Shown: one piece after another, positions 15,954 to 34,714 of the stretch
How the letters are laid out: each line of letters starts with the position of its first letter
Numbering within the stretch: position 1 is the stretch's first letter
Sequence record: PZ445414.1
Direction: 5' to 3' (one strand)
DNA from: a phage
DNA length: 49,911 nucleotides
Made by a program: the position numbers and the translations under genes
Notes under the pieces: model-generated
Database searches by the model: none
Told to the model about the DNA's origin: nothing
What the model saw: only the letters and a program-made list of their open reading frames with translations

Positions 15954-18900
15954 ATGATAAGCGGCAATAAGGGCGGCTCCTCTAAGCCGTACAAGCCAAA
16001 GGAGATGGAGGACAACCTGATCTCCATCAACAAAATCAAAATCCTCCTGGCGGTTTCAGACGGAGAGGTAGACGGCGAGTTTTCGCTAAAAAATCTCTAC
16101 CTTGACGACGTGCCAGTGCAAAACGCAGACGGATCGCTTAACTATAGCGGTGTTAGTGCTGAGTTCCGGCCAGGCACTCAAACGCAGGACTACATCAAGG
16201 GATTTTCAGACACGTCAAGCGAAATCACGATTCAGCGAGATCTGGCGCAGAATAACCCTTACAGCATTGCGGTAACAAACAAATCACTATCTGCTATCAG
16301 GATCAAAATCCTGATGCCTCAGGGCTACAAGCAGGAGGATAACGGCGATCTTGTTGGTGTTTCTGTGCAGTACGCAGTTGATATGGCAGTTGATGGCGGT
16401 TCGTTTAAGCGCGTGCTAACTGATACAATCACTGGTAAAACGACTAGCGGCTACGACAGGAGCCAGCGCATTGACCTGCCAAACTTCAACGAGCAGGTGA
16501 TTTTGCGAGTTAGTCGAGTTACGGAGGATTCAACATCAAGCCGCCTTGTCGATAAAATTCGTTTGCAGAGCTATGCGGAGGTTGTTGATGCAAAATTCCG
16601 TTATCCTCTGACTGGTTTAGTTTACGTTGAGTTTGATAGCGAGCTTTTCCCTAACCAGCTACCAAACATTTCTATCAAGAAGAAATGGAAGCTGATAAAC
16701 GTTCCTGTTAACTACGATCCAGAATCACGCGAATACTCAGGAAGCTGGAACGGTCTGTTTAAAAAGGCTTGGAGCAACAACCCAGCTTGGGTTCTGTATG
16801 ACCTGATCACCAATCAGCGCTACGGGCTAGACCAAAGAGAGCTTGGGATTGAGATTGACAAGTGGAGCATCTACGAGGCAGCACAGTATTGCGATCAGAT
16901 GGTTCCAGATGGCAAAGGAGGACTAGAGCCTCGCTATCTGTGTGATGTTGTTATCCAGAGCCAGATTGAAGCGTTTAACCTGATCCGTGATATTTGCTCT
17001 ATCTTCCGTGGCATGAGCTTTTGGAACGGAGAGAGCCTTTCTATCGTGGTGGATAAACCGCGTGATCCGTCTTACATTTTCAGTAATGACAACGTGGTTA
17101 ACGGCGATTTCCAGTACACCTTTGCAAGCGAGAAAAGCATGTACACGCAGTGTAACGTGACTTTCGACGACGAGCAAAACATGTACAGCCAGGATATTGA
17201 GGGCGTTTTCGACACTGAGGCCGCTTTGCGCTTTGGTCACAATCCGACAAGCATCACAGCAATCGGATGCACACGACGCAGCGAGGCGAACCGCCGAGGG
17301 CGCTGGATTCTCAAGACCAACCTGCGCAGCACCACGGTAAACTTTGCAACTGGTCTTGAGGGCATGATCCCGACAATCGGAGATGTGATCGCAATCGCGG
17401 ATAACTTCTGGGCTAGCAACTTGACGCTTAATCTTTCTGGGCGCGTCATGGAGGTTTCAGGGCTGCAAGTTTTCCTCCCGTTCCGAGTTGATGCGAGGCC
17501 TGGTGATTTTATCCTGATCAACAAGCCGGACGGAAAGCCAGTTAAGCGCACTATTTCACGAGTTAGCGCAGACGGGAAAACTATTGAGTTAAACGTTGGC
17601 TTTGGTTTCGACGTTAAGCCGGACACGGTTTTCGCAATCGACAGGACTGATCTTGCGTTGCAGCAGTACGTTGTTACCGGAATAACCAGGGGCGACGATA
17701 CGGAGCAATTCACGTACTCAATAACGGCTGTCGAATACGATCCAAACAAGTACGACGAGATTGATTACGGAGTGAACATTGACGACAGGCCAACAAGCAT
17801 TGTAAACCCTGGCGTGATGAAAGCGCCTGAAAATGTGCAGGTGTCCTCTTACTCTCGCATTGTTCAGGGGCAGAGCGTAGAAACGATGGTTGTTAGCTGG
17901 GATAAAGTCGAATACGCAAGCTTGTACGAGGTGCAATGGAGAAAGGACAATAGCAACTGGCTAAACGTTCCTCAGACTGCAAACAAAGAGGTTAGCGTTG
18001 AGGGTATTTACTCAGGCAACTACTTTGTAAGGGTTCGATCAGTATCCGCGTCTGGAAGCACGTCGCCGTGGTCTAGTGTTGTTTCAGCCGCATTAACTGG
18101 CAAGGTTGGCGAGCCTAAAATGCCTATTAACTTGACCGCCTCAGATAATGAGATATTTGGGATCCGCGTCAAGTGGGGTATACCTGAGGGTGCTGGCGAT
18201 ACTGCTTACATAGAGCTACAGCAAGCGCCGGACGTAGACGGAATGGCTAGCGAAGAAAACGCAACACTGCTAACTCTCGTTCCGTATCCTCAAATGGAGT
18301 ATTGGCACGCAACGTTACCACCTGGATATATCAACTGGTATCGAGTGCGAAGTGTTGACAGGATCGGAAACGTTTCTGCGTGGACTGACTTTGTGCGCGG
18401 TATGTCGTCAACTAACGTTGATGATATTTTAGGCGACATTCTTGATGATATTTTAAACTCTGCTGGGTTTGAGGAGTTCAAAGAGAATGCCGTAGATACT
18501 GCAAACAAGGTTAAAGACCAGGCGCAAAGCGTGATCCAGAATGCGCTAGCTATTGATACCAATCTGCGTTGGAACCGAGTAGAAAACGGGAAGCGTAAAG
18601 CGGAGCACGGACAGGCGCTTGAGCTTATCGCAAACGAAACAGAGGCGCGAATTCAGGCGGTTGAGGTTCTGCGAACTGAGTTTGACGAGGGCATCTCCTC
18701 TAACATTACAGAAGTCAAGAAATTGATTTCTAACGAGGCGGAAACGCGAGCGAGCCAGGTTCAGCAGTTAGACGCTACATTCACGAAAAAAGTTTCTGAC
18801 GTGAATGGTAGGGTTGACGGTGTTTCTCAAGAGATCGTTAAGACAAACGCAAACGTGAGTAGCGCACAGCAAGCGATTGCAAACGAGACTGAGGCAAGGA

Positions 18901-19532
18901 CTCAAGCGGTTAGCTCTCTTGACTCCAAGTTTACAGGGCAGATTAATGGCGTTAAGCAGGATTTATCCTCAAACGTCACGAGGTTGGATCAGTCTATCGC
19001 TAACGAGACTCAAGCGAGAGCCAGTGCTGACACTGCGTTGTCAACTCGTGTTGGTAAAACGGAATCGGCAATTACTCAGAAGCTTGACTCTTGGGTAGAC
19101 AACGGATCTATAGGTGCTCAGTACGCTCTCAAGCTTGGGATTAAACGTGCTGGTGTTGAGTACACGGCTGGAGTTTCGCTATCGCTAATCCAGTCAGGTA
19201 GCGAGATAAAATCTCAATTCCTGGTTGATGCGGCGAGGTTCGGGGTAATGACTAGGCAGGGAGGGAGCTACACATTGCCGTTTGTAGTTGATAATGGAAC
19301 GGTTATCATGAATACGGCGCTAATTAAAAACGGCTCTATAACAAACGCAATGATTGGTAACGTGATTCAGTCAAATAATTATGTTGCTGGCAAGTCCGGT
19401 TGGAGGCTGGACAAAAACGGAAACCTTGAGATCAATGGCAGCGCCGGAAATGGCAGACTGACCATTAACAATAACATTATCGCGGTTTACGATGGTAATG
19501 GTGTCTTGAGGGTTCGAATGGGGTTGTTCTAA
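15954..19532 (+). CDS. tail tip / host specificity protein J
   Basis: 1192 aa from ATG 15954 (SD GGAGG); N-terminus MISGNKGGSSKPYKPKE... like lambda J; FN3-like segments; repeated IANETEAR motifs near C-terminus. Confidence 0.8.
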   Translation: MISGNKGGSSKPYKPKEMEDNLISINKIKILLAVSDGEVDGEFSLKNLYLDDVPVQNADGSLNYSGVSAEFRPGTQTQDYIKGFSDTSSEITIQRDLAQNNPYSIAVTNKSLSAIRIKILMPQGYKQEDNGDLVGVSVQYAVDMAVDGGSFKRVLTDTITGKTTSGYDRSQRIDLPNFNEQVILRVSRVTEDSTSSRLVDKIRLQSYAEVVDAKFRYPLTGLVYVEFDSELFPNQLPNISIKKKWKLINVPVNYDPESREYSGSWNGLFKKAWSNNPAWVLYDLITNQRYGLDQRELGIEIDKWSIYEAAQYCDQMVPDGKGGLEPRYLCDVVIQSQIEAFNLIRDICSIFRGMSFWNGESLSIVVDKPRDPSYIFSNDNVVNGDFQYTFASEKSMYTQCNVTFDDEQNMYSQDIEGVFDTEAALRFGHNPTSITAIGCTRRSEANRRGRWILKTNLRSTTVNFATGLEGMIPTIGDVIAIADNFWASNLTLNLSGRVMEVSGLQVFLPFRVDARPGDFILINKPDGKPVKRTISRVSADGKTIELNVGFGFDVKPDTVFAIDRTDLALQQYVVTGITRGDDTEQFTYSITAVEYDPNKYDEIDYGVNIDDRPTSIVNPGVMKAPENVQVSSYSRIVQGQSVETMVVSWDKVEYASLYEVQWRKDNSNWLNVPQTANKEVSVEGIYSGNYFVRVRSVSASGSTSPWSSVVSAALTGKVGEPKMPINLTASDNEIFGIRVKWGIPEGAGDTAYIELQQAPDVDGMASEENATLLTLVPYPQMEYWHATLPPGYINWYRVRSVDRIGNVSAWTDFVRGMSSTNVDDILGDILDDILNSAGFEEFKENAVDTANKVKDQAQSVIQNALAIDTNLRWNRVENGKRKAEHGQALELIANETEARIQAVEVLRTEFDEGISSNITEVKKLISNEAETRASQVQQLDATFTKKVSDVNGRVDGVSQEIVKTNANVSSAQQAIANETEARTQAVSSLDSKFTGQINGVKQDLSSNVTRLDQSIANETQARASADTALSTRVGKTESAITQKLDSWVDNGSIGAQYALKLGIKRAGVEYTAGVSLSLIQSGSEIKSQFLVDAARFGVMTRQGGSYTLPFVVDNGTVIMNTALIKNGSITNAMIGNVIQSNNYVAGKSGWRLDKNGNLEINGSAGNGRLTINNNIIAVYDGNGVLRVRMGLF

Positions 19533-19538
19533 CAGAAA

Positions 19539-19567
19539 AGGGAGCCTTGCGGCTCCCTCTTTTTTTA
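19539..19567. terminator. bidirectional terminator between J (+) and secreted-protein gene (-)
   Basis: gggagcc ttgc ggctccc tctttttttt; A-rich on the other side. Confidence 0.7.
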
Positions 19568-19897
19568 CATCAATTTGTTGTGGTCAACAGGGATTCTGTT
19601 TGTTTGCTTGGTGATCATATCAAGCTTGTATTCATCGCCGCGATTCCACTCGAAGCGAAGGGTATACGTGTTAGCGTCACCGTGGCACATTACGTGCTTG
19701 AATTTGCGCAAGTGCTTGTCAAAGATCGCGTTTGTGCTCTCCTCAATCTTCACCGTCCGATCTGAGCAGTTTACAACGGCGACGGTTGAGCCAGTAAGAG
19801 ACATTCTGGAAGCTTCAACCGGATAGCCGATATTAACGTTCAAAGCCATAGCGTTTAAAGGCGCTACAAGAGCCATAGCGAGCATGATTTTTTTCAT
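19565..19897 (-). CDS. small secreted protein (signal peptide, 2 Cys); candidate moron
   Basis: 110 aa; N-terminal signal peptide MKKIMLAMALVAPLNAMA; own box-type promoter; opposite strand to structural operon; flanked by hairpins. Confidence 0.6.
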   Translation of the reverse strand: MKKIMLAMALVAPLNAMALNVNIGYPVEASRMSLTGSTVAVVNCSDRTVKIEESTNAIFDKHLRKFKHVMCHGDANTYTLRFEWNRGDEYKLDMITKQTNRIPVDHNKLM

Positions 19898-19953
19898 TTG
19901 TATTTCCTCGTTTCGTTAAGTTGAAATGAGTATAGCCCCATTTGCGGGGCTTG

Positions 19954-19972
19954 TTTTAGCAATTCGTGCGGT
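19954..19972 (-). promoter_or_regulatory. box variant upstream of secreted-protein gene
   Basis: minus-strand CCGCACGAATTGCTAAAA followed by hairpin, TATACT and conserved leader. Confidence 0.4.
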
Positions 19973-20625
19973 TAGTTGTAACCCTGGAATTTCGCGTATG
20001 GTATTTTGAGGTTTCCGCACCCGTTAAAGATTTCAGAGAAAGAGCGCTGGTTTCTTCTGATCCAGTATGTCTGCAACTGCGAACCAGTCCAGCGCATGAG
20101 GTTGCCTGAATAACCCTGCGTTTCTCCGTCGTCGCTCCATTCGCCGTAGCAGGCATCCCATAGAAAGAATGGGTTAAAACCTGGAGTCACGGAGGCAACT
20201 CTAGCCTCAAGATTGAAAGACGCTGGAACGTCAAGGAATCCCATTATTCGAGGCATTGTTGCGGCGCTGGCGGCAGTCCAAACAAGATTACCGGAAGCGT
20301 CGAATACGTCGAGATAGCCGGACTTAAGTGCCTTGTTTCTCGAAGTCCTGATTATCCTGATTGCGTTAGTGCTGAACATATCCGCGCCAGGGTAGCCCCA
20401 CTGGTTATTACCTGTAAACTGAATCCAGGTTAGAAAGCCATCCTTGCGCTTATCACCATCGCGAAGATTGCCAAGGGCTTTAACGTCGCCAAATGGCGTG
20501 CTTAGGCTGTAAGCCCCAACGTCAATTAGCGGTTGCGGAGTGTAGATAGAATCAAAGATCGTATGCTTTTGATCGGAGTTGATCAGGACAACCCCCGCGT
20601 TATTACGTACCTCAAAGCCTGACAT
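19972..20625 (-). CDS. hypothetical protein (possibly tail-associated)
   Basis: 217 aa; SD AGGAGG; shares DASGNLV motif with 20634..20939. Confidence 0.5.
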   Translation of the reverse strand: MSGFEVRNNAGVVLINSDQKHTIFDSIYTPQPLIDVGAYSLSTPFGDVKALGNLRDGDKRKDGFLTWIQFTGNNQWGYPGADMFSTNAIRIIRTSRNKALKSGYLDVFDASGNLVWTAASAATMPRIMGFLDVPASFNLEARVASVTPGFNPFFLWDACYGEWSDDGETQGYSGNLMRWTGSQLQTYWIRRNQRSFSEIFNGCGNLKIPYAKFQGYN

Positions 20626-20633
20626 AAAGCCTC

Positions 20634-20939
20634 CTAGTTAAACATGTAAACTTCAATGGTAAGAGTCTGATCAGCAAACGGATTGCTTGTTGGCAGGTAA
20701 AGAACATCAACGCCGCCGTTTCTCGTCACGGCTGCATAGCTTTGTTTATACACAGCGCCAGCAGATGCCGCCATGACAACCGCGAACGAGTTGGAACCAG
20801 TCAGCCCAGCTACGTTGAAAGAAACCGAGCGAGTAGTTCGCGGGAATGAAATGTTTTTCCGGACAACAAAGCGCGTACTGAAATCGCCAAGATCGACAAC
20901 CAGGTTTCCGCTTGCATCCCATGCTTGAAGACCAGGCAT
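20634..20939 (-). CDS. hypothetical protein (paralogous motif DASGNLV)
   Basis: 101 aa; SD GAGAGGTGG; driven by sigma70-like promoter in AT-rich region. Confidence 0.5.
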   Translation of the reverse strand: MPGLQAWDASGNLVVDLGDFSTRFVVRKNISFPRTTRSVSFNVAGLTGSNSFAVVMAASAGAVYKQSYAAVTRNGGVDVLYLPTSNPFADQTLTIEVYMFN

Positions 20940-20975
20940 AATGCCACCTCTCTAGTTTGCTTATTAAGTGCATTT

Positions 20976-21004
20976 AATATACAGGCGCGGCGTAATCATT
21001 TCAA
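20976..21004 (-). promoter_or_regulatory. sigma70-like promoter TTGAAA-N17-TATATT (minus strand)
   Basis: reverse complement of 20976-21004; upstream of minus gene starting 20939. Confidence 0.55.
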
Positions 21005-21125
21005 TGGCAAATGCAAAACCTTACCTTAATTGTTCTTTTTGTTTCTCTGTGTTCTCGATTGCACCCACCGCAGAATCGCACAACGTTTTAGAACAGAAAA
21101 AACAAAATAAATCATCTATAATATA

Positions 21126-21157
21126 TAATAAAATCAATAGTTTAGTTTATATGTATT
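21126..21157. repeat. conserved ~30-bp AT-rich element containing IHF-consensus-like AATCAATAGTTTA (copy A)
   Basis: taataaaatcaatagtttagtttatatgtat; near-identical copy at 40555. Confidence 0.5.
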
Positions 21158-21388
21158 TGTATGTTGTTATTTATTGTTTCCAATGTTTCAGTGTTAATTG
21201 ATGTACTGGCTTTCTTTAGTCTGGATATCTCTATTATCCATTTGATGTGTGTATTTATATAAACCCCACCGCAAATCCGTGAACAATGAAACAAAAAATA
21301 ACGACGTTTAAAATCATGCACTTAAGAGCTGATTTTGTTATCGGGGTTGAAAGATGTGTTTCGAGAACAGAAAAAACAATTGAAGGTA

Positions 21389-27706: not shown

Positions 27707-29707
27707 ATGGCAATTCCAAATATTGACAAACAGCTTTCCGCTTTGGGTGAAGCGGTAATCAAGGCGATTCAAGATCGCTTTACGTTTGGCGGAATCACCC
27801 CATACCCTTACCAGTGCGTTGCGTACACTGAGATCGCAAAACGCATGAAAAATTACGAACATCCTTTCTTTGTGAAAGCGTCCGTATCTGCTGGCAAAAC
27901 AATGATTTTTGCAATGGTCGCGGCGCAGTGTCAGAGGATGGGGCTTAAAATGATGGTTCTCGCTCGCCAGGGTGAGATTGTGGATCAGGATTCAGAGGAG
28001 ATCAGTAATTTCGGAGTGCCTAACTCCGTCTACTGCGCGGCGCTGAAACTCAAGGGCGTACACTTCCCCATCGTGGTTGGCTCTGAGGGAACCGTTTCAA
28101 ACGGACTCTTTAAGGCGCTGGGCGACTACGTGCCGCACGTTATCGGGATTGACGAATGCCACCAGGTAGATTGGGAGGATTTAGCGGAGGCAATCGAAAA
28201 CGATGAGCCGTGGCAGCAAATGACCACGAAAAAAGGCGAGATTGTCCTGAATGGTGACGGCTCCCGCGCTCTCAACAATGACGGTGAGCCAATGGAGGGA
28301 ACCGGACGCACGCAATACACTCTTATAATTCGAGAAATGCAGCGCCGATGCAAAGAGACATACGGGCATGAGTTGCGCATTTTTGGAATGACTGGATCAG
28401 AATTTCGCGGCGTTGTTCCAATCCTGGTAGAAGATAAGCGCCAGCGCGGTTTCTGGCGTGAACAGGTGACGAACATTGATACCAACTACCTTATCAAGTT
28501 CGGCTCCGTTGTGCCTACAAACTTTGGCGGCGTAGATGGATTGGGTTATGACCTTTCAGAGTTCACCGCATCCAGCGAGGACGGAGTAGCAGACTTTGAC
28601 CAGAAAACCCTCCGAAAGATGGAGGAGAAGATCCATAAAGATGCAACCATGACGCAAAAAATCATGGCACGCGTGCATGAGATCTGCAAAGACCGCAACG
28701 GCGTGCTGGTAACTTGCGCTGGAGAGCGTCACTGCAAAGAGGCTGCCGCCGCACTTCCGCCAGGGGCAACATACAGGATCATCACTGGCAAGACCGGAGA
28801 GAAACAACGTAAAGAATGGTTAAAAGAGGCATTCGAGGGAAAAGTAAAATACATTTTCCAGGTTCAAGCACTAACAACTGGCGTAAACGTTCCATATTGG
28901 GATACGTCCGTTATCCTGCGCAAAATAGGATCGCTTACTCTGCTGATCCAGCTTTTGGGGCGCGGTATGCGACTTTTAAAGAAATGGCACATCGAGCAAG
29001 GATTCAAAAAAGACGATCACCTTGTTCTCGACTTTGCCGGATGCATGGACGAGTTGGGGCAGCTTTACTTTGATCCTATTCTGGAACAGGCGCAATATCA
29101 GCGACGTGGCGATAACGGAAAGGATCCCAAATTCTGCCCTGACTGCGGCACTGAAAACTCATTCTATGCACGCCGTTGCGTTCACGTTGACGAAAACGGG
29201 AATCGATGCGAGTATTTTTGGAAGTATCGAGAGTGCGAGGATCAGGTAGACCCGCGCACTAAAAAGGTTATCGTCAAAGGCTGCGGCACTAAAAACGACA
29301 TAGCCGCCAGGGTTTGCCGCTGCTGTGATGTGTCGCTCATTGACCCGAACGAAAAACTATCAGGCAAGCACTACACTAAGAATGATTGGTGCAATGTGAA
29401 ATCTTTCCGTGTCGATATGACCAAAAACCAGAGAGGGATCGTGTTCTGTTATGAGCTTGAGGCGCACGGGGAAACGTTCAAGGCTTATGAGCGATTCTTC
29501 CCTGAGTCTGACAACCAGATCTGCAAGACGCTATGGAGGCAAACGGCGCTCAAGCATATTGCAGATCGCAGGATTGCAGGTGTTACGGCGAGCTATCGCA
29601 ACGCTCGCAAGATTATGCAAAACGCGCATCACATTATGGCTCCGAAACGCGTTACGCATCGCAAAAACGCGAAAGGAGAGGACATTATTTATCATCGGGA
29701 GTTTTGA
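27707..29707 (+). CDS. ATP-dependent helicase (SF2, DEAH-like)
   Basis: 666 aa; Walker A SVSAGKTM, motif II GIDECHQV; C-terminal Cys clusters. Confidence 0.7.
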   Translation: MAIPNIDKQLSALGEAVIKAIQDRFTFGGITPYPYQCVAYTEIAKRMKNYEHPFFVKASVSAGKTMIFAMVAAQCQRMGLKMMVLARQGEIVDQDSEEISNFGVPNSVYCAALKLKGVHFPIVVGSEGTVSNGLFKALGDYVPHVIGIDECHQVDWEDLAEAIENDEPWQQMTTKKGEIVLNGDGSRALNNDGEPMEGTGRTQYTLIIREMQRRCKETYGHELRIFGMTGSEFRGVVPILVEDKRQRGFWREQVTNIDTNYLIKFGSVVPTNFGGVDGLGYDLSEFTASSEDGVADFDQKTLRKMEEKIHKDATMTQKIMARVHEICKDRNGVLVTCAGERHCKEAAAALPPGATYRIITGKTGEKQRKEWLKEAFEGKVKYIFQVQALTTGVNVPYWDTSVILRKIGSLTLLIQLLGRGMRLLKKWHIEQGFKKDDHLVLDFAGCMDELGQLYFDPILEQAQYQRRGDNGKDPKFCPDCGTENSFYARRCVHVDENGNRCEYFWKYRECEDQVDPRTKKVIVKGCGTKNDIAARVCRCCDVSLIDPNEKLSGKHYTKNDWCNVKSFRVDMTKNQRGIVFCYELEAHGETFKAYERFFPESDNQICKTLWRQTALKHIADRRIAGVTASYRNARKIMQNAHHIMAPKRVTHRKNAKGEDIIYHREF

Positions 29708-29709
29708 AT

Positions 29710-30126
29710 ATGGTTACTGACAAAGGCGATTATCTGGAATATTACGAGAGGGATCCGAGCGATACGCGCAAGGAAGATTCTCACCAGGTTGATTGTGTGG
29801 CGTGGTTGCGCCACCACTACCCACACTTGCTCTTTTGGCACACTGTAAACGAGGGGAGCAAGACAATCACCGCCGCGCTGCGTGACGAACAGGCCGGATT
29901 GCTAAAGGGCGTATCAGACTTTGTTATCCTGATTGGTTCTGGTAAATACCCGTTTGCAGCCATAGAGCTAAAGCAAGCCAACAAATCAGGCAAGCGCAAG
30001 GCTTCACCAGTCAGCGACAACCAGAAAGCTTTCTTGAGCAGGGTTAGACACTTGGGAGGTTTCGCAGCCGTTTGCTATGGCGTGAAGCAATTCAAGCTTG
30101 CAATTGCAGATCTCTTGCAGGAATAG
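29710..30126 (+). CDS. VRR-NUC domain nuclease
   Basis: 138 aa; motif DFVILIGSGKYPFAAIELKQ (D..E.K) typical of VRR-NUC; start ATG right after helicase stop. Confidence 0.6.
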   Translation: MVTDKGDYLEYYERDPSDTRKEDSHQVDCVAWLRHHYPHLLFWHTVNEGSKTITAALRDEQAGLLKGVSDFVILIGSGKYPFAAIELKQANKSGKRKASPVSDNQKAFLSRVRHLGGFAAVCYGVKQFKLAIADLLQE

Positions 30127-30141
30127 CACTTTTTGCTAAAA
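30122..30141 (+). promoter_or_regulatory. conserved box + hairpin + CATAAT upstream of lipoprotein gene
   Basis: aatagcactttttgctaaaa; inverted repeat ggcgca/tgcgcc; overlaps VRR-NUC stop TAG. Confidence 0.55.
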
Positions 30142-30198
30142 CAGGCGCAAAGGAATGCGCCATAATGCACCCAACGAAACAAACACGGAGAATTAACC

Positions 30199-30477
30199 AT
30201 GAAAAAGATGTTATCAGTAGTTGCTTTATCGCTTGCCATTGTCGGTTGCATGGATAAACCAAAAGCATATATTTGCGGAAATGAAGTGTTTGAGGTTACA
30301 AGCGAATACATGAAAGTTGTACAAGGTAAAAACACAGGCGTTGTAATGGATAATATCAGCAAAAATAAATACAAGCTGTTTACGCCAATTGGAACAGCTT
30401 TTTACACTGTTAACGATAGCACCATTGATGTTAGAGTCGGAATCTTTCAGCACACTTTAACTTGCGAGGTGAAATAA
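30199..30477 (+). CDS. lipoprotein (candidate superinfection-exclusion protein)
   Basis: 92 aa; signal peptide with lipobox LAIVGC; box-type promoter upstream. Confidence 0.55.
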   Translation: MKKMLSVVALSLAIVGCMDKPKAYICGNEVFEVTSEYMKVVQGKNTGVVMDNISKNKYKLFTPIGTAFYTVNDSTIDVRVGIFQHTLTCEVK

Positions 30478-30478
30478 A

Positions 30479-31225
30479 ATGGCTAAAGACGTTCTGGATA
30501 ACTCAACAATCGACGGTATCGAGCAGGTTGATGAAATGGACTTTCACGAATTGCAGCACGGCAAGTATTCAGACATAACCCTGCGCTCAGGCGGTCACTA
30601 CCAGGCCGTGAAACCATGCCAGTATTACAAGGTTACAGGCAACCGTTACGCCGGAAGCAACACTCCAGATGTTGTCCGTGACCTTTGGGCTACTCCGCGC
30701 GATGTTGTCGCGTATATGGAAAGCCGCTACGGTAAATATGATCTTGACGCTGCGGCTAGTGAGGACAATAAAGTCTGTGAAAAATTCTACAGCAAAGAAA
30801 CAAACTGCTTAAAGCGTTGGTGGGGTAGCAAGAAGCACGTATGGCTGAATCCTCCATATTCTAATCCAGATCCGTTTGTGCTCAAGGCCATTGAGCAAAT
30901 GGAGCACGAAAACCAGATCGACATATTGCTTCCAGCCGATAACTCAACGGCATGGTTTAGCGATGCGCAAAAGCACGCTGCGGAAATTATCTGGATCACT
31001 GGCGAAACCTGGAAAGATGAAGATGGGCGCGAGTATTCACGAACCGGACGATTAGCGTTTATTTCCGGCCTGACAGGTGAGCCAGTTAGCGGCAACAACA
31101 AAGGCAGCGTGATCTTTGTCATGCGCAAATTGAAAGAGGGCGAAACGCAGCAAACTCACTACGTGAAAATCAGCGATATTTGCACGTCTGTAAAAAACAA
31201 GCGAGCCAAAGCAAGGAGTTTTTAA
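30479..31225 (+). CDS. dam: DNA N6-adenine methyltransferase (phage Dam family)
   Basis: 248 aa; motif IV WLNPPYS (NPPY) and DLDAAAS SAM-binding-like motif. Confidence 0.75.
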   Translation: MAKDVLDNSTIDGIEQVDEMDFHELQHGKYSDITLRSGGHYQAVKPCQYYKVTGNRYAGSNTPDVVRDLWATPRDVVAYMESRYGKYDLDAAASEDNKVCEKFYSKETNCLKRWWGSKKHVWLNPPYSNPDPFVLKAIEQMEHENQIDILLPADNSTAWFSDAQKHAAEIIWITGETWKDEDGREYSRTGRLAFISGLTGEPVSGNNKGSVIFVMRKLKEGETQQTHYVKISDICTSVKNKRAKARSF

Positions 31226-31335
31226 TGAAAGATGATATTTCAGCACTTGGAATGCTTTGTGCATTCATGATCGGCGGCGGTTTTTGTTCTTACGCGCTCA
31301 TTGCGCTAATCATCAAAGTAGGGGAGTTGATTTAA
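31225..31335 (+). CDS. small hydrophobic peptide (36 aa)
   Basis: ATG overlaps dam stop (TAATG); single predicted TM segment; not in ORF track because <60 aa. Confidence 0.3.
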   Translation: MKDDISALGMLCAFMIGGGFCSYALIALIIKVGELI

Positions 31336-33609: not shown

Positions 33610-33825
33610 ATGAGAGAATTTTTAAACGCAGCAACCACCAGCACCGGAGGCGCATCACTGACGGGCGCGGCGACGGGGCAAATTACCATTGCGGTTGCTG
33701 GTCTTATCCTAATGGCGGCTTTCGGCTTTTGGGGCGCGTATCTGCGCTGGAAGGATAGCAAGGCGCTGCGAGAGGCTTTGGATCGTGAAGATATCAAAGA
33801 GGCAATTCGAATCAGGGGGAAATAA
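33610..33825 (+). CDS. holin (pinholin-like)
   Basis: 71 aa; Gly/Ala/Ser/Thr-rich weakly hydrophobic TMD1 then hydrophobic TMD2, charged C-terminus; directly upstream of SAR-type endolysin; SD GAGGAGG. Confidence 0.65.
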
Positions 33826-33827
33826 TC

Positions 33828-34322
33828 ATGAGTTTACAGAGAAGCGCGGCATACGCTTTATTTGGCGCTGCGCTCTCGTTAACTTCTCCGCTCCTGGAGG
33901 AGATCGAGGGCATCCGGTACAAGCCTTATAAAGATATTGCCGGAATCTGGACAGTCTGCGCGGGTATTACCGGATCTGACGTTGTGCTTGGTAAGACGTA
34001 CACGCAGAGAGAATGTGACGCACTTCTTGCCAAGCATATCGGGATTGCAAAGGCAGAAGTCGATAAGCGCGTAAATGTTGAGATACCGGACACTATGCGT
34101 GCGGCAATGTACTCCTTTACGTACAACGCTGGTACTGGAGCGTTTCGCAAGTCAACCATGCTCAAGAAGATCAACAATGGCGATCTTTATGGGGCGTGCG
34201 ACGAGCTTTGGAAATGGACGTATTACTACAATCCAAAAACGGGAAAGCGCGAGAAGTCCAAAGGTTTAAAAAACCGTCGCGCGGTTGAGTATAAATATTG
34301 CACTAAGGATCTGAAAAAATGA
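33828..34322 (+). CDS. endolysin, lysozyme (GH24-like) with N-terminal SAR-like segment
   Basis: [26 protein letters not shown] and [13 protein letters not shown] closely parallel phage 21-type SAR lysozymes as recalled; N-terminal [18 protein letters not shown] weakly hydrophobic. Confidence 0.75.
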
Positions 34323-34714
34323 AACGATTAGCTTTGGCGGTACTGGTTGCCGCCTCTCTTTCTGGTTGTTCAGCGTCAAGCGCTCTGAGCGGTTTAATCG
34401 GCAGCAAGCCGGAAATCACAGCACAGGCCGGAGCCGAAAACGTAAAGCAAACAGTAGGCGTGACGGCAAAGAATGACGAGAGCAGCAAGCAGGAAAACAC
34501 GATCAAGGATTCGCAGGTTGGCAAGGTTGACTCCTCCAACAAAAAGAAGGTGAGCACTTCAAGCATCCAGGCTGAGACAATCACAGCCGACAAGATCGAG
34601 ATCAGAAACAGCGAGAGCGATTTGTATGTGATGTTCTTTGCGCTTGCTTGCTTATTTGTTGCTGGCTTTGCCGCTGGCGTTTTTTGGAAGGGCAGAAAAA
34701 ATAAAGGGGCATAA
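34319..34714 (+). CDS. unimolecular spanin (lipoprotein with C-terminal TMD)
   Basis: N-terminal lipobox LSGC, C-terminal TM helix [22 protein letters not shown]; position after endolysin, as for T1 gp11-type u-spanins. Confidence 0.7.

What the first reader, a model, noticed from the sequence alone, without database searches (positions are those of the whole stretch)
30199..30477. Early lipoprotein: candidate receptor-blocking / superinfection-exclusion factor
Seen in sequence: 92-aa ORF with lipoprotein signal (lipobox LAIVGC) directly downstream of a box promoter, located between nuclease and dam genes. Established knowledge: T-odd-like phages encode small lipoproteins (Cor, Llp classes) that inactivate their outer-membrane receptor. 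Assignment here is inference only.
Basis: inference. Interest (0 to 1): 0.4.

Follow-up and report, generated by a model that had tools for sequence, protein, structure and literature searches.

The report
Orphan phage outer-membrane lipoprotein cassette
The ORF is a real, conserved small lipoprotein gene of the T1-like coliphage IsaakIselin, but its distribution shows it is not the blocker of this phage's own receptor, so it is an uncharacterised envelope accessory protein that can be tested easily.

Summary
The window is Escherichia phage IsaakIselin (Bas10, Drexlerviridae), rotated by 533 bp. The ORF at 30199-30477 is bas10_0036, annotated 'hypothetical protein'.

The ORF has a canonical lipobox (Cys17), a GGAG ribosome-binding site and dN/dS of 0.15-0.19. 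The known 21-nt Drexlerviridae 'box' repeat lies 76 nt upstream. The stop codon lies 1 nt before the dam start codon. The mature 75 residues model confidently as an eight-stranded beta-barrel with two invariant cysteines.

The family (PHROG 7420, unknown function) occurs in about 273 phage records. In all five genomes inspected it sits between the VRR-NUC nuclease gene and dam.

The Cor/Llp-type reading (blocker of the phage's own receptor) is not supported:
- Bas10 uses YncD as receptor.
- 86-90% identical copies occur in TolC phages (TLS, Bas08), and a 63% identical copy in the OmpC phage GH-K3.
- Phages with the YncD-type receptor-binding locus (Bas11, NBD2) have no family member anywhere in the sequence searched.
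- The locus after gpJ has its own secreted 110-aa protein, at the position where T1 has Cor.
- There is no sequence or fold match to Cor, Llp or Rtp45. The barrel resembles MliC/PliC only generically.

Most likely it is an accessory envelope protein that acts independently of the terminal receptor. Its function is untested.

The parts
30123..30141 (+). 'Box' direct repeat ATAGCACTTTTTGCTAAAA. It overlaps the TAG stop codon of the VRR-NUC gene and lies 76 nt upstream of the lipoprotein ATG.
   Evidence: The window holds 24 copies at 3 or fewer mismatches, nearly all upstream of genes and in their orientation. It matches the repeat described for phage TLS, whose function is unknown (PMC11447400).
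30144..30161 (+). GC-rich hairpin GGCGCA-aaggaa-TGCGCC between the box and the -10-like hexamer.
   Evidence: RNAfold gives -11.0 kcal/mol, z = -4.4 against shuffles. A hairpin at the corresponding intergenic position (between the VRR-NUC homologue and dam) in T1 is annotated as a rho-independent terminator. No T-run follows it on the + strand.
30161..30166 (+). -10-like hexamer CATAAT.
   Evidence: A TATAAT-like hexamer lies 18 nt after the TTGCTAAAAC core in most box copies. No experiment maps a transcription start here.
30187..30190 (+). Shine-Dalgarno sequence GGAG, 8 nt before the ATG.
   Evidence: Read directly from the sequence.
30199..30246 (+). Signal peptide (residues 1-16) ending in the lipobox A-I-V-G before Cys17.
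   Evidence: The PS51257-type rule is met here and in almost all family members. G16 and C17 are invariant.
30247..30477 (+). Mature lipoprotein: lipid-modified Cys17 (30247-30249), a short linker, then an eight-stranded beta-barrel domain (residues 22-88). Cys26 and Cys89 are invariant. TAA stop at 30475-30477.
30479..31225 (+). dam (N6-adenine methyltransferase). Its ATG lies 1 nt after the lipoprotein stop, so it is probably co-transcribed.
   Evidence: Pfam Dam E = 1.8e-62. In phages that lack the lipoprotein gene the box directly precedes dam.
29710..30126 (+). VRR-NUC nuclease gene (bas10_0035), the upstream border of the cassette slot.
   Evidence: Pfam VRR_NUC E = 1.4e-13. Annotation.
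19565..19897 (-). bas10_0024: a 110-aa secreted protein (signal peptide ending AMA|L, no lipobox cysteine) that ends the receptor-binding locus after gpJ. It is the positional analogue of Cor/Rtp45 and the better candidate for the cognate YncD exclusion factor.
   Evidence: Sequence. It has its own box at about 19972. Its homologues were found only in phage records that also carry the bas10_0025 RBP family (43 records versus 59), and they lie next to the RBP gene in the hits listed. Cor lies in the same position in T1.
19972..20939 (-). bas10_0025 (217 aa) and bas10_0026 (101 aa): the YncD-type receptor-binding locus.
   Evidence: bas10_0025 is 74% identical to its homologue in the YncD phage IME347. 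The YncD-specific family downstream of gpJ is described in bioRxiv 10.64898/2026.04.02.716166.

Best explanation
bas10_0036 is a genuine accessory gene of a virulent T1-like phage.

Shown by sequence and comparison:
- It encodes a precursor with a type II (lipoprotein) signal peptide.
- It is under purifying selection.
- It is the first gene of a box-lipoprotein-dam unit.
- It occupies a cassette slot between the VRR-NUC and dam genes. In sister phages this slot is empty or holds other membrane or periplasmic proteins.

Inferred from established lipoprotein biogenesis rules: after Sec export, Lgt/LspA/Lnt lipidate Cys17. [quoted passage not shown]

Inferred from the model: an eight-stranded beta-barrel of about 70 residues hangs in the periplasm on a 4-5 residue tether. 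It is probably closed by a Cys26-Cys89 disulfide made by DsbA.

Inferred mechanism: the barrel binds a periplasm-exposed host envelope component that is not the phage's terminal receptor. This changes the envelope of the infected cell in the phage's favour. The most plausible benefit is exclusion of competing phages at a step that does not depend on receptor type, such as post-adsorption entry or a heterologous receptor.

It is not the cognate YncD blocker. That role fits the secreted protein bas10_0024 in the locus after gpJ.
For: Gene reality and lipoprotein signal.

Identity: the window is phage IsaakIselin and the ORF is bas10_0036.

Fold: 8 strands, pLDDT about 95. Cys26 and Cys89 are invariant, as is the lipobox.

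Narrow family: 11 representatives among 1.84 billion proteins, and every homologous-protein hit lies on a contig of 52 kb or less. The slot VRR-NUC | X | dam holds a member in TLS, KP1801, CJ19 and K50PH164C1.

Dispensable cassette:
- It is absent genome-wide from Bas11, which is 93% identical to Bas10 over 45.9 kb.
- BubbaBully, N5822 and PMBT35 carry instead a 150-aa signal-anchored protein plus a 66-84-aa membrane protein. In BubbaBully each of these has its own box.

Independence from receptor:
- Bas10 uses YncD; Bas08, TLS and LL5 use TolC (PMC8594841); GH-K3 uses OmpC (PMC6546894).
- All carry the family at 63-100% identity.
- NBD2 has a 98% identical RBP and no family member in the 50,000 of 51,802 bases searched.

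Allele turnover typical of conflict interfaces: against K50PH164C1 every other syntenic protein is 57-88% identical, but the lipoprotein is 25%.
Against: There is no functional datum of any kind for this family in the literature searched.

The binding partner is unknown. The fold is a generic small barrel, so it does not point to a target.

The family is near-universal in Tlsvirus and Webervirus. That could mean a housekeeping role in the infection cycle rather than competition.

Outer-membrane sorting, lipidation and the disulfide are predicted, not measured. One subfamily has Asp at +2 (P0031), which would keep it in the inner membrane.

Expression timing is not measured.
Confidence: 0.45

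Rival explanations
1. Cor/Llp-type blocker of the phage's own receptor. The lipoprotein binds the periplasmic face of the TonB-dependent transporter YncD and allosterically closes its extracellular loops, so that Bas10-like phages can no longer adsorb.
For: YncD is a TonB-dependent transporter, and jamming of such transporters by small phage lipoproteins has been proposed as a general mechanism (PMC9586334).
Against: Copies 86-90% identical occur in TolC phages that lack the YncD-type locus. A copy also occurs in the OmpC phage GH-K3. Bas11 and NBD2 carry YncD-type loci but no family member. The gene is not in the locus after gpJ, where all documented Drexlerviridae exclusion genes lie. That locus has its own secreted protein. 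The fold differs from Llp/Cor.
Confidence: 0.07
2. Blocker of a heterologous or ancestral receptor, most plausibly TolC. Tlsviruses have no locus after gpJ and so no obvious exclusion gene. This lipoprotein would be their exclusion factor, and in Bas10 it would exclude TolC-using competitors.
For: The family is present throughout the TLS group. [quoted passage not shown] The Bas10 allele is closer to the TLS allele (86%) than the flanking VRR-NUC protein is (63%), which suggests cassette exchange.
Against: The family is equally conserved in Klebsiella Weberviruses, and one of these (GH-K3) uses OmpC. There is no evidence of TolC binding. Divergent alleles (25-36% identity) occur in phages whose receptors are unknown.
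Confidence: 0.15
3. MliC/PliC-like periplasmic inhibitor of a peptidoglycan hydrolase. It would protect the infected cell from lysis from without or from tail-associated muramidases of superinfecting phages (the functional logic of T4 Spackle), or it would tune the phage's own endolysin.
Against: No member reaches Pfam MliC even at E = 1. The lysozyme-contacting motifs SxSGxxY and YxxxTKG (own knowledge) are absent from the conserved columns. Avidins and lipocalins score equally well, so the similarity is one of topology only.
Confidence: 0.12
4. A non-competitive role in the phage's own cycle, for example envelope conditioning for lysis or release, or interference with an envelope stress or defence pathway of the host.
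For: The gene is nearly universal and under purifying selection in Tlsvirus and Webervirus. It is co-transcribed with a replication-phase gene.
Against: It is dispensable in Bas11, NBD2 and T1, all of which are plaque-forming isolates. It lies outside the lysis cassette, and that cassette already has a u-spanin.
Confidence: 0.2

Closest known systems
T5 Llp and the T1/phi80/N15 Cor family (FhuA-blocking exclusion lipoproteins)
   Same: Small phage-encoded lipoprotein of a virulent siphophage of E. coli. It has a lipobox cysteine, a cysteine 8-9 residues later and a cysteine near the C-terminus, so probably an N-to-C disulfide as in Llp C11-C58. It is beta-rich and predicted to be periplasmic and anchored to the outer membrane.
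   Different: No profile match to Cor. Eight-strand barrel against four strands plus a short helix. It is not adjacent to the receptor-binding gene. It does not co-vary with the receptor.
Rtp45 / Oekolampad bas18_0026 (LptD-binding exclusion lipoproteins of small siphophages)
   Same: Small lipoprotein of T1-like or related siphophages that acts from the periplasmic side (PMC12685063).
   Different: Rtp45 is about 6 kDa with a Cys30-Cys38 disulfide, and its gene lies next to the RBP gene after gpJ. A profile search of all PDB sequences with the family alignment found nothing at E up to 10.
MliC/PliC/PhiA periplasmic lysozyme inhibitors
   Different: No Pfam MliC match, no inhibitory motifs, and equal similarity to avidins and lipocalins. 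MliC is a host-encoded family. This family was found only in phage records and on contigs of 52 kb or less, where contig length is known.
T4 Sp (Spackle) and Imm; Streptococcus phage TP-J34 Ltp
   Same: Exclusion proteins that act after adsorption and so are not tied to one receptor. This would fit the receptor-independent distribution seen here. The comparison rests on my own knowledge; only Sp and Imm are mentioned in the papers read.
   Different: No sequence or fold relationship was tested or is expected. The analogy is purely functional and unproven.
T4-type PeSL cassettes (promoter-early stem-loop flanked accessory ORFs; own knowledge)
   Same: Small accessory ORFs, each preceded by a repeated promoter-like element with a stem-loop, swap in and out of a fixed slot. 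In BubbaBully each of the two cassette genes has its own box.
   Different: A different repeat sequence and a different phage family. Whether the box acts in transcription or in recombination is unknown.

Membership tests
Bacterial/phage lipoprotein (PROSITE PS51257 type II signal peptide) | Lys/Arg in the first 7 residues, an uncharged h-region, [LIVMFWSTAG](2)-[LIVMFYSTAGCQ]-[AGS]-C, with the Cys at position 15-35 | tested here: met
   Cys17 with A-I-V-G before it. The rule is met in almost all family members, and G16 and C17 are invariant.
Bacterial/phage lipoprotein (PROSITE PS51257 type II signal peptide) | Actual lipidation and LspA cleavage | not testable with these tools
   Needs globomycin treatment, palmitate labelling or mass spectrometry.
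Cor superinfection exclusion protein (PHROG 1119) | Sequence match to the Cor profile | tested here: not met
   The protein hits only phrog_7420. T1 Cor hits phrog_1119 at 3.3e-30. hhalign of the family against T1 Cor aligns only residues 1-32, the signal peptide.
Cor superinfection exclusion protein (PHROG 1119) | Gene lies in the receptor-binding locus directly downstream of gpJ | tested here: not met
   T1 cor lies at 29623-29850, just after the gpJ-locus genes. bas10_0036 lies about 10 kb downstream, between the VRR-NUC and dam genes.
Cor superinfection exclusion protein (PHROG 1119) | Presence co-varies with the receptor that the phage itself uses | tested here: not met
   The family is found in YncD, TolC and OmpC phages. 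It is absent from the YncD-locus phages Bas11 and NBD2.
T5 Llp | Fold: two small beta-sheets (four strands) plus a short 3-10 helix, stapled by an N-to-C disulfide | tested here: not met
T5 Llp | Binds the periplasmic face or plug of a TonB-dependent transporter and abolishes RBP binding | not testable with these tools
   No complex prediction or assay is available here.
Rtp45-type LptD exclusion lipoprotein | Sequence relationship to Rtp45 (PDB 9RPS), and a gene adjacent to the LptD-type RBP | tested here: not met
   The PDB-wide profile search gave 0 hits at E up to 10. The locus position differs.
MliC/PliC lysozyme inhibitor (Pfam PF09864) | Match to the Pfam MliC profile | tested here: not met
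   None of 17 members matches at E up to 1. hhalign against E. coli MliC aligns only the signal peptide and Y-x-C.
MliC/PliC lysozyme inhibitor (Pfam PF09864) | Eight-stranded antiparallel beta-barrel | tested here: inconclusive
MliC/PliC lysozyme inhibitor (Pfam PF09864) | Conserved lysozyme-contacting motifs SxSGxxY and YxxxTKG (own knowledge of the family) | tested here: not met
   The invariant or near-invariant columns are Y24, C26, G27, Y58, T62, G65, A67 and C89. Neither motif is present.
Spanin (o-spanin / u-spanin) | Lipoprotein gene inside the lysis cassette next to the holin and endolysin genes | tested here: not met
   The lysis cassette lies at window coordinates about 33610-34714 and has its own u-spanin lipoprotein at 34319..34714.

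The most novel reading that the evidence does not exclude
PHROG 7420 is a new class of phage exclusion factor. It would be an outer-membrane-anchored, disulfide-stapled mini beta-barrel that acts independently of the phage's own terminal receptor. It could block a shared post-adsorption entry step of T1-like phages, or it could jam a heterologous receptor such as TolC. It would be carried as a swappable box-flanked cassette next to dam in hundreds of Drexlerviridae, including therapeutic Klebsiella Weberviruses and the TolC phages TLS and U136B.
Probability: 0.25. Interest if true: 0.55.

Novelty: new variant of a known kind. Interest (0 to 1): 0.35.

Why it matters
Small phage lipoproteins that remodel outer-membrane proteins from the periplasmic side (Llp-FhuA, Rtp45-LptD) are currently the only structurally understood exclusion systems of siphophages. 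In both, the gene sits next to the receptor-binding gene.

A conserved lipoprotein family that is uncoupled from the receptor module would point to a different target or step. The family is present in TolC phages, which have no known exclusion factor, and in most Klebsiella Weberviruses used for therapy.

This matters in practice because exclusion factors determine whether cocktail phages interfere with each other and how much progeny is lost on cell debris.

The test is cheap: one plasmid and the BASEL panel. The natural pair Bas10 (with the gene) and Bas11 (without it) is already available. If no phenotype is found, this remains one more accessory ORF of unknown function.

Tried and rejected
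Profile libraries. Pfam, NCBIfam and PADLOC gave no meaningful hit for the protein. PHROGs gave only an unknown-function family.

Solved structures. The profile search of PDB sequences gave 0 hits at E up to 10. Foldseek against PDB gave nothing better than E = 0.1. BFVD returned only the family's own members. The afdb50 library was not available.

Exhaustive protein search. The HMMER search of 1.84 billion representatives gave only 11 hits. One was a 3231-aa LapA/RTX adhesin with 13 weak repeat matches. I treat that hit as compositional. It may explain the 'putative adhesin' label on two Citrobacter phage copies.

Pairwise profile comparisons. hhalign against MliC and Cor aligned only the signal peptides.

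Promoter. The sigma-70 consensus scan did not find a promoter at the box. I therefore do not call the box a proven promoter.

Spanin. Rejected on position: the gene is not in the lysis cassette.

Covariation with tail proteins. I looked at this using K50PH164C1. The tape-measure protein (57%) is the next most divergent protein after the lipoprotein (25%). One genome cannot separate this from phylogeny, so no claim is made.

Literature. Searches for any functional study of this family, of TLS gp60 or of a TolC or YncD exclusion factor found none.

Full report
**Identity of the window.** A megablast of 29500-31300 gives a 100% match to Escherichia phage IsaakIselin (Bas10, MZ501077.1; Drexlerviridae, Tempevirinae, Henuseptimavirus). 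The window has the same length as the record and is rotated: window coordinate = record coordinate - 533. The ORF of the finding is bas10_0036, annotated 'hypothetical protein'.

**Observation.** The ORF 30199..30477 encodes 92 aa, MKKMLSVVALSLAIVGC|MDKPKAYICGNE....
- It meets the PROSITE-type lipoprotein rule, with Cys17 as the lipid-modified residue and Met at +2.
- Scanning every possible start in all six frames gave four lipobox matches. Only this ORF and the u-spanin (34319..34714) are annotated genes.
- GGAG lies 8 nt before the ATG.
- dN/dS against TLS and KP1801 is 0.15-0.19.
- Upstream is a VRR-NUC nuclease gene and downstream is dam. The dam ATG lies 1 nt after the lipoprotein stop.

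The 'box' is real. ATAGCACTTTTTGCTAAAA lies at 30123-30141, followed by a GC hairpin (30144-30161, -11 kcal/mol, z = -4.4) and CATAAT. The window holds 24 copies. It is the 21-nt repeat aaATAGCACnnnTTGnTAAAA reported for TLS, about 76 nt upstream of start codons, with unknown function (PMC11447400). Here the distance is exactly 76 nt. The TTGCTA-to-(-10) spacing of 22 nt is too long for a plain sigma-70 promoter, and the consensus scan did not list it. 'Promoter' and 'early' therefore remain inferences.

**The protein.** An alignment of 25 homologues shows that the lipobox Cys and two further cysteines (C26, C89) are invariant. With more distant members the invariant set is G16, C17, Y24, C26, G27, Y58 and C89.

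AlphaFold2 gives pLDDT of about 95 for residues 21-92, with eight consecutive antiparallel strands. In an up-and-down barrel the first and last strands are neighbours, so a C26-C89 disulfide is plausible. This is an inference, because I had no coordinates.

**Distribution.**
- tblastn finds 273 full-length copies in phage records: Klebsiella 209, Escherichia 28, Salmonella 16, Citrobacter 14.
- The exhaustive HMMER search of 1.84 billion representatives finds only 11 hits. One of these is a spurious LapA-adhesin match.
- All homologous-protein hits lie on contigs of 52 kb or less.
- In every genome inspected the gene lies in the same slot, VRR-NUC | lipoprotein | dam: TLS (86% identity), Webervirus KP1801 (63%), Nouzillyvirus CJ19 (36%) and K50PH164C1 (25%).

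**The slot is a cassette hotspot.**
- The sister phage Bas11 (JohannLBurckhardt) is 93% identical over 45.9 kb. It has the box followed directly by dam, plus the 3' remnant of a different gene.
- BubbaBully, N5822 and PMBT35 carry instead a 150-aa protein with an N-terminal signal or anchor and a 66-84-aa membrane protein. In BubbaBully each has its own box copy.
- T1 and NBD2 have nothing between the VRR-NUC gene and dam.
- Against K50PH164C1 all other syntenic proteins are 57-88% identical, but the lipoprotein is only 25%. The allele has been replaced, or it evolves much faster than its neighbours.

**Test of the receptor-blocker interpretation.** In Drexlerviridae, receptor specificity and the known exclusion genes map to the hypervariable locus directly after gpJ (PMC8594841; bioRxiv 10.64898/2026.04.02.716166). 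This is shown structurally for Rtp45-LptD (PMC12685063). T1 cor is at that position. Bas10 uses YncD.

The Bas10 locus after gpJ holds three genes:
- bas10_0026.
- bas10_0025, a 217-aa member of the YncD-type family, 74% identical to the homologue in the YncD phage IME347.
- bas10_0024, a 110-aa protein with a signal-peptidase-I type signal (AMA|L) and its own box.

bas10_0024 homologues were found only in phage records that also carry the RBP family (43 records versus 59), and they lie next to the RBP gene in the hits listed. bas10_0024 is thus the positional analogue of Cor and Rtp45.

The lipoprotein is dissociated from this module in both directions:
- 86-90% identical copies are in TLS, Bas08, U136B, LL5 and Stevie-like phages. 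None of these appears among the 59 records with the YncD-type RBP. TLS, LL5 and Bas08 are documented TolC phages.
- GH-K3 carries a 63% identical copy and uses OmpC (PMC6546894).
- NBD2 has a 98% identical RBP and Bas11 a 59% identical RBP with a 96% identical bas10_0024. A six-frame profile search found no family member in either: the whole Bas11 genome, and 50,000 of NBD2's 51,802 bases.

A blocker specific for the phage's own receptor would have to travel with the receptor-binding module. This gene does not.

**Comparison with known families.**
- Cor: no profile match, and hhalign aligns only the signal peptide.
However, Llp has four strands plus a 3-10 helix. This is a resemblance in architecture (small lipoprotein, N-to-C disulfide), not membership.
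- MliC/PliC: the same barrel topology at modest Z, but no Pfam match and no inhibitory motifs.

**Most likely mechanism.** The following steps are inferred; none was measured.
1. The precursor is exported, lipidated at Cys17 and sorted by Lol to the outer membrane, because residue +2 is Met.
2. The barrel hangs a few residues below the inner leaflet and binds a host envelope component.
3. The family is independent of receptor type, shares its slot with other envelope-directed cassettes and shows allele turnover. The best guess is therefore a competition or exclusion function at a receptor-independent step, or against a heterologous receptor such as TolC.

Siphophage subgroups do need periplasmic or inner-membrane host factors after adsorption (DcrB, SdaC, MetQ). 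That gives a plausible class of targets.

They are listed as rivals with their tests.

**Verdict.** The lipoprotein assignment is strongly supported. Membership in the Cor/Llp class and blocking of the phage's own receptor are contradicted by the comparative data. Some other form of exclusion remains possible.

The gene belongs to an uncharacterised family found only in Drexlerviridae and Drexlerviridae-sized contigs. I found no functional study of it in the literature searched. Interest is moderate: the result would not be surprising, but it can be tested cheaply with the natural pair Bas10/Bas11.

Noticed in passing
window, 24 sites, e.g. 1569, 15920, 27631, 30123, 31584, 31917, 41610, 42812, 44472, 45198, 47315 (+); 40266, 39821, 39086, 37781, 36892, 27194, 19972 (-): The box repeat ATAGCACnnnTTGCTAAAA is followed 18 nt later by a TATAAT-like hexamer. 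In most copies a GC-rich hairpin of variable sequence either ends at the -10 (30123, 31584, 41610, 44472, 37781, 19972) or encloses it (42812, 45198, 47315, 39821, 39086). The 22-nt distance from TTGCTA to the -10 does not fit a plain sigma-70 promoter. An activator-dependent promoter (the phage encodes a putative transcription regulator, bas10_0033) or a combined terminator and promoter is possible. The TLS paper leaves the function open.
   Followed up: partly
L003 (BubbaBully) 2197-2972; L012 (N5822) 997-1772; L010 (PMBT35) 987-1897; L002 (Bas11) 2128-2217: The same VRR-NUC/dam slot holds an alternative two-gene cassette in sister phages: a 150-aa signal-anchored protein and a 66-84-aa membrane protein. 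Neither has any family match. Bas11 retains only the last ~50 bp of the BubbaBully second gene and its 3' flank before dam, so its empty slot arose by deletion.
   Followed up: partly
window 19565-20625 (-), compared with L013 (Bas11) and L008 (NBD2): There is mosaicism inside the YncD-type receptor locus. Bas11 has a 96% identical secreted protein (bas10_0024) but only a 59% identical RBP. NBD2 has a 98% identical RBP but only a 52% identical secreted protein. A recombination breakpoint therefore lies between the two genes.
   Followed up: partly
L006 (TLS) 2357-2779; protein P0004: TLS gp60 is annotated as 140 aa, with a start that overlaps gp59. P0004 is called as 133 aa. Both are over-extended at the N-terminus. 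The conserved start is the MKK of the lipoprotein signal peptide (92 aa), so automated lipoprotein prediction on the deposited proteins would miss the signal.
   Followed up: yes
phage records OL539465.1 and OL539462.1; protein P0030: Two Citrobacter phage copies are annotated 'putative adhesin'. The only non-phage hit of the family profile is a 3231-aa LapA/RTX adhesin, with 13 weak matches to its Ig-like repeats. This is probably compositional and is the likely source of the label.
   Followed up: partly
phage record OR786094.1 and one Stenotrophomonas-labelled record: A 49-kb record labelled 'Streptococcus phage MBBL140' carries an 87% identical copy of this enterobacterial T1-like gene. 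A record labelled Stenotrophomonas also has a match. These look like mislabelled hosts or T1-like contaminants.
   Followed up: no
L014 (K50PH164C1) 16651-21359: This Klebsiella Tempevirinae phage has a long J protein (1470 aa) followed by a single 88-aa secreted protein on the opposite strand, with two C-terminal cysteines. This is another layout of the locus after gpJ, possibly with its own exclusion factor. It also carries the most divergent lipoprotein allele (25%).
   Followed up: no
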